Of a stretch of 500 bases of DNA, positions 1 through 500 are shown in pieces. The notes beneath the pieces are model-generated. The model saw nothing but the letters and a program-made list of their open reading frames with translations, had not been told where the DNA came from and did no database searches. Every line of letters starts with the position of its first letter. Position 1 is the stretch's first letter. This DNA comes from Escherichia coli (lineage in GTDB: Bacteria > Pseudomonadota > Gammaproteobacteria > Enterobacterales > Enterobacteriaceae): assembly GCF_003334335.1 (NCBI RefSeq), contig NZ_QOWQ01000182.1; one strand, written 5' to 3'. A program made the translations under genes and the position numbers.

Positions 1-470
1 TCCGTATCCCAGACCGGCTGCACAAAGATTTCGCCGTTAAACGCATGAACGCCCACACCTTCACGGATAAATTCCGTGAACGTGCGTTTTCCTTCCACGT
101 CGATCTCGCCAAACATCCCTTCTGCGTATTCCGACCAGGCCGCCTCCACCTCATCGACAAAGCTTTTTGCTGCGGTCTCCCGCATCCCCAGCCAGCGCCA
201 GTTCGGACGGTAGCTGATCAGAAACATATGCCCGACAATGTGATCCTTATGCAGAGCCACCGCATTAGCCGCTATTCCGTTATTGCGCACCAGATCATCT
301 GCCCGGGCATTCCCCAGACGCAACGCGGGTAGCAGGGCCGCATCGGCACTCTGCGCCGGTGGCAACCACTCAGCCATTTGCCCGCCAAATCCTGCACCGC
401 CCCCGTTGTAGCTGAGACTCTCACGAAGCGGAACGCCGTTCACATCAATCAGGACAGGCGTTCGTTTCAT
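1..470 (-). CDS. Phage portal protein, lambda gpB family; N-terminal 156 codons, 3'-partial (continues past window position 1)
   Basis: Reverse-complement translation from the ATG complementary to + 468-470 is open to the window edge: MKRTPVLIDVNGVPLRESLSYNGGGAGFGGQMAEWLPPAQSADAALLPALRLGNARADDLVRNNGIAANAVALHKDHIVGHMFLISYRPNWRWLGMRETAAKSFVDEVEAAWSEYAEGMFGEIDVEGKRTFTEFIREGVGVHAFNGEIFVQPVWDT. By-eye alignment with the lambda gpB N-terminus (recalled from memory) shows long conserved blocks: GxGFGGQ, DAALLP, GNARADDLVRNNG, AANA, LHxDHIVG, EVEAAW, KRTFT, IREGV, HAFNGExFVQ, WDT. A GGAG Shine-Dalgarno sits 7 nt upstream of the ATG. Confidence 0.9.
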   Translation of the reverse strand, partial: MKRTPVLIDVNGVPLRESLSYNGGGAGFGGQMAEWLPPAQSADAALLPALRLGNARADDLVRNNGIAANAVALHKDHIVGHMFLISYRPNWRWLGMRETAAKSFVDEVEAAWSEYAEGMFGEIDVEGKRTFTEFIREGVGVHAFNGEIFVQPVWDT

Positions 471-500
471 AACCTCACTCCCAGCGGACGACGGCGACGC
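467..500 (-). CDS. C-terminal end (10 codons plus stop) of the upstream gene, probably a gpW-like head-tail joining/head completion protein; 5'-partial
   Basis: Minus-strand frame ending at the TGA complementary to + 467-469 reads ...RRRRPLGVRL*. The arginine run followed by a short hydrophobic tail resembles the lambda gpW C-terminus (...QRRRGPAGFYV, from memory). The position immediately upstream of the portal gene and the 4-nt ATGA stop/start overlap match lambda W/B organisation. Only 10 residues are visible, so the family assignment is tentative. Confidence 0.55.
   Translation of the reverse strand, partial: RRRRPLGVRL
478..481 (-). promoter_or_regulatory. Shine-Dalgarno (GGAG, within a GGGAGTGAGG purine-rich stretch) for the portal gene
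   Basis: Minus-strand sequence 5'-GGGAGTGAGGTTATG-3' (+ 468-482); the GGAG is separated from the ATG by 7 nt. It lies inside the 3' end of the upstream coding sequence, as expected for translationally coupled genes. Confidence 0.5.

What the first reader, a model, noticed from the sequence alone, without database searches (positions are those of the whole stretch)
467..470. ATGA stop/start overlap between the gpW-like gene and the portal gene
The upstream ORF's TGA (complement of + 467-469) shares two nucleotides with the portal ATG (complement of + 468-470). This implies translational coupling with no intergenic space, hence no room for an independent promoter or terminator. As I recall the coordinates, lambda W and B overlap by the same 4 nt, so the junction architecture is conserved, not just the proteins.
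Basis: partly seen in the sequence, partly recalled or inferred. Interest (0 to 1): 0.3.

Follow-up and report, generated by a model that had tools for sequence, protein, structure and literature searches.

The report
gpW–portal ATGA gene overlap, lambdoid prophage
The stop codon of a small phage head-tail adaptor gene (gpW type) overlaps the start codon of the portal gene by four bases (ATGA), exactly as in phage lambda; this is real, already annotated in phage 21 and its relatives, and is the commonest kind of gene junction in these genomes.

Summary
On the minus strand, ATG (470-468) starts a lambda-family portal gene. TGA (469-467) ends an upstream frame that reads ...RRRRPLGVRL*. The window is 100% identical to phage PhiR5_1 and to an E. 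coli NCTC9112 prophage, and 99.6% identical to phage 21. Extending past +500 gives a 68-aa ORF that is 55% identical to lambda W, hits Pfam gpW at 1.3e-22, and lies between the terminase large subunit and the portal. Lambda W (2633-2839) and B (2836-4437) overlap by the same ATGA.

Conservation is clade-dependent. Of 42 non-redundant lambda/21/PS3-like junctions, 33 are NTGA overlaps, against a 21-24% genome-wide baseline. In chi-like phages TGATG/TAATG dominates, with some 0-13 nt gaps. So tight juxtaposition is what is general.

A Shine-Dalgarno (SD) motif, GGGAG, lies 7 nt upstream of the ATG, inside gpW's C-terminal P-x-G codons. Those codons show a strong bias to GGA/GGG/AGG. No conserved RNA structure is present.

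The best model is SD-assisted termination-reinitiation that matches output of two 12-copy binding partners. This is inferred, not shown.

The feature is already known and ordinary: M81255 annotates both genes and the ribosome binding site. Interest is low.

The parts
1..470 (-). 5' part of the portal gene (lambda gpB / phage 21 gene 4 homologue), codons 1-156 of 530; start ATG at 470-468
   Evidence: The frame is open across the whole window. The full ORF is 530 aa in L001 3531-5123. Pfam Phage_portal_2 PF05136 6e-100; PHROG 21 portal 2e-190. It is annotated as portal in PV340545, M81255 and NZ_LR134079.
467..500 (-). 3' end of the gpW-type head-tail adaptor (Ad1) gene (phage 21 gene 3 homologue): last 10 sense codons RRRRPLGVRL plus stop TGA at 469-467. 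The gene continues 173 nt beyond +500.
   Evidence: Translation. The full 68-aa ORF is L001 3328-3534. Pfam gpW 1.3e-22; PHROG 75; PDB 1HYW lambda gpW 3e-15; 55% identity to lambda W.
467..470 (-). ATGA stop/start overlap (4-nt CDS overlap)
   Evidence: Read directly from the sequence. The same tetramer is at this junction in 79/79 near-identical viral contigs where it could be located. The same geometry occurs in lambda, HK225, N15, Gifsy-1 (GTGA), Marinobacter PS3 (GTGA), iEPS5, ZRG1 and HFM1.
478..482 (-). Shine-Dalgarno motif GGGAG for the portal gene, 7 nt before the ATG, lying inside the gpW coding sequence
   Evidence: Read from the sequence. GGAG is annotated as the ribosome binding site in M81255 at 2979-2982. 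Best duplex with the 16S 3' tail is -7.7 kcal/mol, within the top 7% of windows in its own portal CDS.
479..487 (-). Codons CCG CTG GGA (P-L-G) of the gpW C-arm. The Gly codon GGA (481-479) supplies the core of the SD.
   Evidence: At this aligned site, 11 nt before the portal start, the codon is GGA/GGG in 23 of 24 Gly cases and AGG/AGA in 14 of 14 Arg cases among 40 non-redundant lambda-like junctions. Background in portal genes is 28% GGA/GGG and 6% AGR.

Best explanation
The window holds the junction between two adjacent late-operon morphogenesis genes of a phage 21-type lambdoid prophage of E. coli. These are the gpW-type adaptor gene (68 aa) and the lambda-family portal gene (530 aa), both read on the minus strand.

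The two genes are on one polycistronic late mRNA. The adaptor's UGA and the portal's AUG overlap as AUGA. A GGGAG Shine-Dalgarno motif lies 7 nt upstream, built from the codons of the adaptor's C-terminal arm.

Most likely mechanism: a ribosome finishing gpW terminates at UGA with the portal AUG one base behind it. It is held by the SD/anti-SD contact and re-initiates on the portal gene (SD-assisted termination-reinitiation). Some additional de novo loading probably occurs at the same SD. This ties portal output to adaptor output. That makes sense because the two proteins are direct binding partners, each present at 12 copies per virion.

Shown here: gene identities, the overlap, the SD, its codon-level conservation, and the conservation of a tight junction. 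Inferred: that re-initiation actually happens, and how much of portal synthesis depends on it.
For: Gene identities and geometry.

The same ATGA occurs in lambda W/B.

Junction survey:
- 10 of 19 annotated phages with lambda-type portals have NTGA and 4 have a 1-nt overlap.
- Among 42 non-redundant lambda/PS3-like viral contigs, 33 have NTGA, 8 have a 1-nt overlap, and none has a gap.
- 63 of 66 chi-like junctions lie between +4 and -13 nt.
- The ATG/GTG alternation and the different flanking residues (GFYV*/MKTP in lambda, GVRL*/MKRT here, RFIL*/VKAP in PS3) show the geometry persists while the sequence diverges.

SD evidence: -7.7 kcal/mol here. The lambda-like clade averages -5.97 against -2.90 background. 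Rare purine-rich codons are fixed at the SD position, with p = 7e-12 and 1.4e-15; these are not phylogenetically corrected.

Literature:
- Translation was coupled in 13 of 14 ATGA/TGATG pairs tested, and removing the SD lowered re-initiation in 4 of 5 E. coli pairs (PMC6728339).
- Coupling needs overlaps or very short distances, and such pairs are enriched for subunits of heteromeric complexes (PMC10666635).
- Lambda has 12 gpB and 12 gpW per virion, and the gpW C-arm (residues 55-68) binds gpB by beta-sheet augmentation (PMC10721106).
Against: There is no expression data for this junction.

A good SD means the portal could be initiated entirely de novo. One E. coli ATGA pair (bioBF) showed no coupling.

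Four-nt overlaps are 21-24% of all junctions in these genomes, so the geometry by itself is weak evidence of a special function.

The neighbouring A/W junction changed from ATGA in lambda to a 17-nt overlap in the 21 type. Such junctions are therefore not inviolable.

From memory, not verified here: lambda W amber mutants still make DNA-filled heads, so portal synthesis cannot depend strictly on ribosomes reaching the end of W.

gpW acts late, after packaging, and the portal acts first, at prohead initiation. Co-translational assembly is therefore unlikely to be the benefit.
Confidence: 0.65

Rival explanations
1. The portal is initiated independently and the overlap is just compaction. Fresh 30S subunits translate the portal by binding the GGGAG SD. 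The ATGA overlap is a by-product of genome compaction and mutational drift of stop and start codons, with no dependence on W translation.
For: The SD is strong and conserved at the codon level. Four-nt overlaps are the commonest junction genome-wide. bioBF is an ATGA pair without coupling. The A/W junction differs between lambda and the 21 type. Recalled, not verified: W amber mutants still assemble heads.
Against: Translation was coupled in 13 of 14 tested overlap pairs. NTGA at this junction is far above baseline in the lambda-like clade: 33/42 against 30/132. The chi-like clade keeps the junction within +4 to -13 nt even though it shows no SD enrichment. That is hard to explain if only de novo SD-driven initiation mattered.
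Confidence: 0.27
2. Coupling works by RNA unfolding. A secondary structure hides the portal SD and AUG, and ribosomes translating the end of W melt it, allowing initiation.
For: In the 21-type sequence the minimum-free-energy fold pairs part of the SD and AUG region.
Against: That fold is no better than shuffled sequence: z = -1.2 for the 21 type and z = +0.8 for lambda. RNAalifold on 16 divergent lambda-like junctions predicts no conserved pair at all.
Confidence: 0.05
3. The overlap is an annotation artefact. The real portal start lies downstream, for example GTG at codon 10 or ATG at codon 32, so there is no real overlap.
For: None specific. The start has not been determined by protein sequencing for this phage.
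Against: The ATG is the first start codon in the ORF. It has an SD at ideal spacing. The N-terminus MK(R)TP... is conserved in Gifsy-1, lambda, N15 and HK225. A start codon abuts or overlaps the adaptor stop in nearly all of about 108 non-redundant loci.
Confidence: 0.03

Closest known systems
Phage lambda W/B junction (NC_001416: W 2633-2839, B 2836-4437)
   Same: Both have a 68-aa gpW followed by a lambda-family portal. Both have a 4-nt ATGA overlap, a portal that starts MK..., and an SD made from the Gly codon of the gpW C-terminal P-x-G motif.
   Different: The proteins are only about 55% (W) and about 61% (portal) identical. The last W codon is TTA (Leu) here and GTA (Val) in lambda. The SD is GGGAG with a 7-nt spacer here and AGGA with an 8-nt spacer in lambda. 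The upstream A/W junction is a 17-nt overlap here but ATGA in lambda.
Phage 21 head operon, genes 3 and 4 (GenBank M81255)
   Same: It is 99.6% identical to the window. It has the same ATGA, and the record already annotates gene 3 (2787-2993), gene 4 (2990-4582) and the ribosome binding site GGAG (2979-2982).
   Different: There are two base differences. gp3 reads RCRRR in M81255 and RRRRR in the window.
Overlapping unidirectional gene pairs coupled by termination-reinitiation (Huber et al. 2019, 2023)
   Same: The genes are co-directional, overlap as ATGA, have an intragenic SD upstream, and encode two subunits of one complex.
   Different: Coupling has not been measured for this pair. The two proteins act at different times in assembly.
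Chi-like (Casjensviridae-type) adaptor/portal junctions
   Same: Gene order is the same (terminase large subunit, PHROG 75 adaptor, lambda-family portal), with the stop and start within a few bases of each other.
   Different: The dominant form is TGATG/TAATG (29 of 66 non-redundant) or a 1-13 nt gap, and ATGA occurs in only 4 of 66. There is no SD enrichment.

Membership tests
gpW / head-tail adaptor Ad1 (Pfam PF02831, PHROG 75) | Significant match to the family profile over the whole protein | tested here: met
   Pfam gpW 1.3e-22, residues 4-67 against model positions 3-66 of 66. PHROG 75 3.1e-29.
gpW / head-tail adaptor Ad1 (Pfam PF02831, PHROG 75) | Small size (about 68 aa) and sequence similarity to the solved lambda gpW | tested here: met
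   68 aa, the same as lambda W. 55% identity over 51 aa. PDB 1HYW E = 3.3e-15.
gpW / head-tail adaptor Ad1 (Pfam PF02831, PHROG 75) | Position between the terminase large subunit gene and the portal gene | tested here: met
   Annotated order is Nu1, A, W, portal, protease/scaffold, D, E in L001, L002 and L003.
gpW / head-tail adaptor Ad1 (Pfam PF02831, PHROG 75) | Two-helix bundle, beta-hairpin and C-arm fold; forms a 12-mer on the portal | not tested
   No structure prediction was run. This is inferred from sequence similarity to 1HYW/8K38 and from the lambda structure paper.
Lambda-family portal (Pfam PF05136 Phage_portal_2) | Full-length match to the family profile | tested here: met
   PF05136 6e-100, model positions 2-354 of 354. 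PHROG 21 2.3e-190.
Termination-reinitiation coupled gene pair | Co-directional genes with a 4-nt (ATGA) or 1-nt overlap | tested here: met
   ATGA at minus 470-467.
Termination-reinitiation coupled gene pair | Both genes on one transcript, with no promoter or terminator between them | tested here: inconclusive
   No sigma-70-like site was found in L001 2800-4300. Only weak 5-bp terminator-like hairpins lie inside W. A single late transcript is established for lambda (general knowledge) but was not measured for this phage.
Termination-reinitiation coupled gene pair | Translation of the downstream gene depends on ribosomes reaching the upstream stop codon | not testable with these tools
   This needs reporter assays or ribosome profiling.
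Termination-reinitiation coupled gene pair | Intragenic SD upstream of the downstream start (common but not obligatory) | tested here: met
   GGGAG with a 7-nt spacer, -7.7 kcal/mol. Codon bias at the site.

The most novel reading that the evidence does not exclude
The last codons of gpW may be under a double constraint. They encode the C-arm that docks onto the portal, and at the same time the Gly/Arg codon of the P-x-G/R motif is held to GGA/GGG/AGG so that it serves as the portal's Shine-Dalgarno. Together with the conserved stop/start overlap, this would form a family-wide device in lambda-like phages. It would set adaptor and portal synthesis at a fixed ratio matching their 12:12 stoichiometry. 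Chi-like phages would achieve the same result by SD-independent TGATG re-initiation.
Probability: 0.45. Interest if true: 0.25.

Novelty: already known. Interest (0 to 1): 0.1.

Why it matters
It matters little beyond confirming correct annotation. The junction is a textbook example of operon compaction and probable translational coupling in a phage late operon. GenBank records for phage 21 and lambda already carry it.

There is modest added value. The survey shows that what is conserved across lambda-type portal phages is a tight adaptor-stop/portal-start junction, and the exact form is clade-specific. It also shows that the portal's ribosome binding site is written into the codons of the adaptor's portal-binding arm. 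That could be useful for refactoring or recoding lambda-like head modules: synonymous recoding of the W 3' end, or separating W from B, may change portal dosage.

Tried and rejected
- **gpW scan of viral contigs:** The search for related loci with the gpW protein alone returned only 99-100% identical loci. These confirmed invariance of ATGA (79/79) but said nothing about divergence.
- **gpW alignment as a scan query:** I switched to portal alignments.
- **tblastn with the 68-aa gpW against phages:** reached only lambdoid relatives.
- **RNA structure at the junction:** single-sequence folds were not better than shuffles. The alignment fold gave zero pairs. The RNA-unfolding model was therefore rejected.
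- **Promoter and terminator scan:** nothing meaningful.
- **Lambda-specific expression papers:** Sampson et al. 1988 PNAS and Liu et al. 2013 PNAS ribosome profiling are not in the held library, so no W:B expression ratio could be cited.
- **Literature on lambda head-gene coupling or the phage 21 sequence paper:** searches found nothing directly relevant.
- **Alternative portal start and programmed frameshift or fusion at ATGA:** both were considered. There is no evidence for either, and the ORF structure and homology argue against them.

Full report
**Observation.** The minus strand of the window reads 5'-...CGTCCGCTGGGAGTGAGGTTATGAAACGAACG...-3'. The ATG frame stays open for all 156 codons down to position 1. 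The TGA frame reads RRRRPLGVRL* inside the window. ATGA also occurs at two other places on this strand (298, 154), so the tetramer itself is unremarkable. What counts is that this copy joins two real genes.

**Where the window comes from.** The window is 100% identical to Escherichia phage PhiR5_1 (PV340545) and to a prophage in E. coli NCTC9112. It is 99.6% identical to phage 21 (M81255, OL657228) and several 'lambda-like' isolates. Matching sequence is found in 1861 of 5426 complete E. coli genomes, with up to five copies per genome. In all three annotated contexts the gene order is small terminase, large terminase, a 207-nt 'head-tail joining protein W / gene 3', portal, protease/scaffold, decoration protein, major capsid protein. 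W ends 4 nt inside the portal gene in each. The 1990s record M81255 even annotates the ribosome binding site GGAG at 2979-2982, which corresponds to window complement 481-478.

**The upstream ORF.** Beyond +500 the frame continues to an ATG 207 nt upstream of the stop, giving 68 aa: MVTVAELQALRQARLDLLTGKRVVSVQKDGRRIEYTAASLDELNRAINDAESVLGTTRRRRRPLGVRL.
- It is the same length as lambda W and 55% identical to it over 51 residues, E = 1e-19.
- It matches Pfam gpW (PF02831) at 1.3e-22 over essentially the whole model.
- It matches PHROG 75 'head-tail adaptor Ad1' at 3e-29.
- It matches the solved lambda gpW chain 1HYW at 3e-15.

The downstream protein matches Pfam Phage_portal_2 (lambda family) at 6e-100 and PHROG 21 at 2e-190.

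**Lambda.** NC_001416 annotates W at 2633-2839 and B at 2836-4437. The sequence there is ...GGATTTTATGTATGAAAACG....

**Is the geometry special?** In PhiR5_1, 15 of 70 same-strand adjacent gene pairs overlap by exactly 4 nt (12 ATGA, 3 GTGA). In lambda the figure is 15 of 62. This agrees with the literature, in which -4 and -1 are by far the commonest distances between unidirectional genes across 1,695 prokaryotic genomes (PMC10666635). So the junction type is the default.

**Is it conserved at this junction?** I read the junction in 19 annotated phages carrying lambda-family portals, from 100% down to about 23% portal identity.
- Ten have an NTGA overlap: lambda, 21, PhiR5_1, HK225, N15, Gifsy-1 (GTGA), Marinobacter PS3 (GTGA), chi-like iEPS5, Pseudomonas ZRG1 and Acinetobacter HFM1.
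- Four have a 1-nt overlap.
- One abuts (Wolbachia WO).
- The remaining four have gaps of 3 nt (Xanthomonas M29), 12 nt (Xylella Bacata) or 108 nt (Faecalibacterium Lagaffe), or a 10-nt overlap (Rhodobacter RcMrWorf).

The upstream genes are adaptor-family proteins (PHROG 75, 118 or 5774) in all but one case.

I then ran two scans of viral contigs with portal alignments. Profile HMMs located the adaptor stop and the nearest in-frame portal start, independent of annotation.
- In the lambda/PS3-like clade, 42 non-redundant junctions gave 33 NTGA (26 ATGA, 7 GTGA), 8 one-nt overlaps and one 11-nt overlap.
- In the chi-like clade, 66 non-redundant junctions gave 29 one-nt overlaps, 4 ATGA and 30 with gaps of 0-13 nt.

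What is general across the family is tight juxtaposition of the adaptor stop and the portal start, not ATGA as such. The geometry persists while the flanking residues and even the start codon change: GFYV*/MKTP, GVRL*/MKRT, RFIL*/VKAP. By contrast, the neighbouring A/W junction is ATGA in lambda but ATGG in the 21 type. This moves the terminase stop 13 nt downstream and gives a 17-nt overlap.

**Initiation signals.** GGGAG lies 7 nt before the portal ATG. Its best duplex with the 16S 3' tail is -7.7 kcal/mol, in the top 7% of equal-sized windows from its own portal CDS. Across 40 non-redundant lambda-like junctions the mean is -5.97 against -2.90 kcal/mol for background. The chi-like clade shows no enrichment, at -3.26 against -2.71.

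The SD is made from the codons of gpW's conserved C-terminal P-x-G/R motif; in the window these are CCG CTG GGA at 487-479. At that site, whose first base is 11 nt before the portal start, the codon is GGA/GGG in 23 of 24 Gly cases, against 28% of Gly codons in the portal genes (p = 7e-12). It is AGG/AGA in 14 of 14 Arg cases, against 6% (p = 1.4e-15). These p-values ignore shared ancestry, but the direction is clear: synonymous choice is constrained toward an SD. In lambda the C-arm (residues 55-68) is the part of gpW that binds the portal by beta-sheet augmentation (PMC10721106). The same nucleotides therefore carry both a protein-binding constraint and a translation-signal constraint.

**RNA structure.** Folding 120 nt around the junction gives z = -1.2 for the 21 type and z = +0.8 for lambda, relative to shuffles. 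RNAalifold on 16 divergent lambda-like junctions predicts no pair. An RNA-unfolding mechanism of coupling is not supported. A consensus scan finds no sigma-70-like promoter in the 1.5 kb around the junction and only weak terminator-like hairpins.

**Mechanism.** The best-supported model is SD-assisted termination-reinitiation, in which ribosomes terminating at the W UGA restart at the overlapping AUG. Supporting points:
- Translation was coupled in 13 of 14 ATGA/TGATG pairs tested experimentally, and the SD contributed in 4 of 5 E. coli pairs (PMC6728339).
- Coupling collapses once the stop-start distance reaches about 20 nt.
- Overlapping pairs are enriched for subunits of heteromeric complexes (PMC10666635).
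- gpW and gpB are direct partners at 12 copies each (PMC10721106).

This remains inference. One E. coli ATGA pair (bioBF) is not coupled, and the SD here is good enough for de novo initiation. From memory only, lambda W amber mutants still build DNA-filled heads, which argues against obligatory coupling. I put about 0.65 on at least partial coupling, about 0.27 on purely independent initiation, and little on the remaining rivals.

**Comparison and novelty.** The feature is the phage 21 gene 3/gene 4 junction, homologous to lambda W/B. It is annotated in public records, including the ribosome binding site. It is a member of known families on every testable criterion. The only untested criterion is the functional one, dependence of portal translation on W translation. 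It is already known and ordinary, and interest is low. The small addition from this work is the clade-level picture of junction forms and the codon-level evidence for an SD embedded in the gpW C-arm.

Noticed in passing
window 479-487 (minus strand); L183-L262 and L001, L004, L085, L086 at the equivalent site: The Gly/Arg codon of gpW's C-terminal P-x-G/R motif lies 11 nt before the portal start. It is almost always a rare purine-rich codon: GGA/GGG in 23 of 24 Gly cases and AGG/AGA in 14 of 14 Arg cases. It forms the portal's Shine-Dalgarno. The same residues belong to the C-arm that binds the portal in the lambda cryo-EM structure.
   Followed up: partly
L103-L182 (chi-like/Casjensviridae-type contigs), adaptor-portal junction: In this clade the junction is mostly TGATG/TAATG (1-nt overlap) or a 1-13 nt gap, and ATGA is rare. 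The region upstream of the portal start shows no SD enrichment, unlike the lambda-like clade.
   Followed up: partly
L001 3328-3344 versus L004 2633-2636 (outside the window, 5' end of W): The terminase-A/W junction is ATGA in lambda but ATGG in the 21 type. The terminase stop is lost and A runs 13 nt further, giving a 17-nt overlap. This shows how easily ATGA junctions can drift.
   Followed up: partly
window 60-80 (+ strand) with T-rich tail to about 90; equals L001 3941-3921: An 8-bp inverted repeat, TTCACGGA-TAAAT-TCCGTGAA, is followed by CGTGCGTTTT on the strand antisense to the portal gene. It is a terminator-like hairpin formed by the FTEFIRE codons. It is probably incidental.
   Followed up: no
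window 485-499 (minus strand) versus L002 (M81255): The gpW C-arm carries a run of five arginines (RRRRR) in the window and in PhiR5_1. The old phage 21 record reads RCRRR. This is either a real polymorphism or an early sequencing error.
   Followed up: no
whole window: Sequence matching the window occurs in 1861 of 5426 complete E. coli genomes, with a median of 2 and up to 5 copies per genome. The 21-type head module is one of the commonest prophage modules in E. coli.
   Followed up: no
L098 505-1044 (Xanthomonas M29), L100 527-1093 (Synechococcus S-CBS1), L096 707-1066 (Acinetobacter HFM1): In distant lambda-type-portal phages the gene just upstream of the portal is longer, at 119-188 aa. 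It carries an adaptor-like (PHROG 118) region only at its C-terminus, so it looks like an N-terminally extended or fused adaptor. Xylella Bacata's adaptor is annotated at only 55 aa and matches just the C-terminal two-thirds of PHROG 75, so its start codon may be mis-called.
   Followed up: no
window 45-332 (+ strand): A 95-aa ATG ORF runs antisense to the portal gene. There is no evidence that it is a gene. It is a typical shadow ORF opposite a GC-rich coding frame.
   Followed up: no
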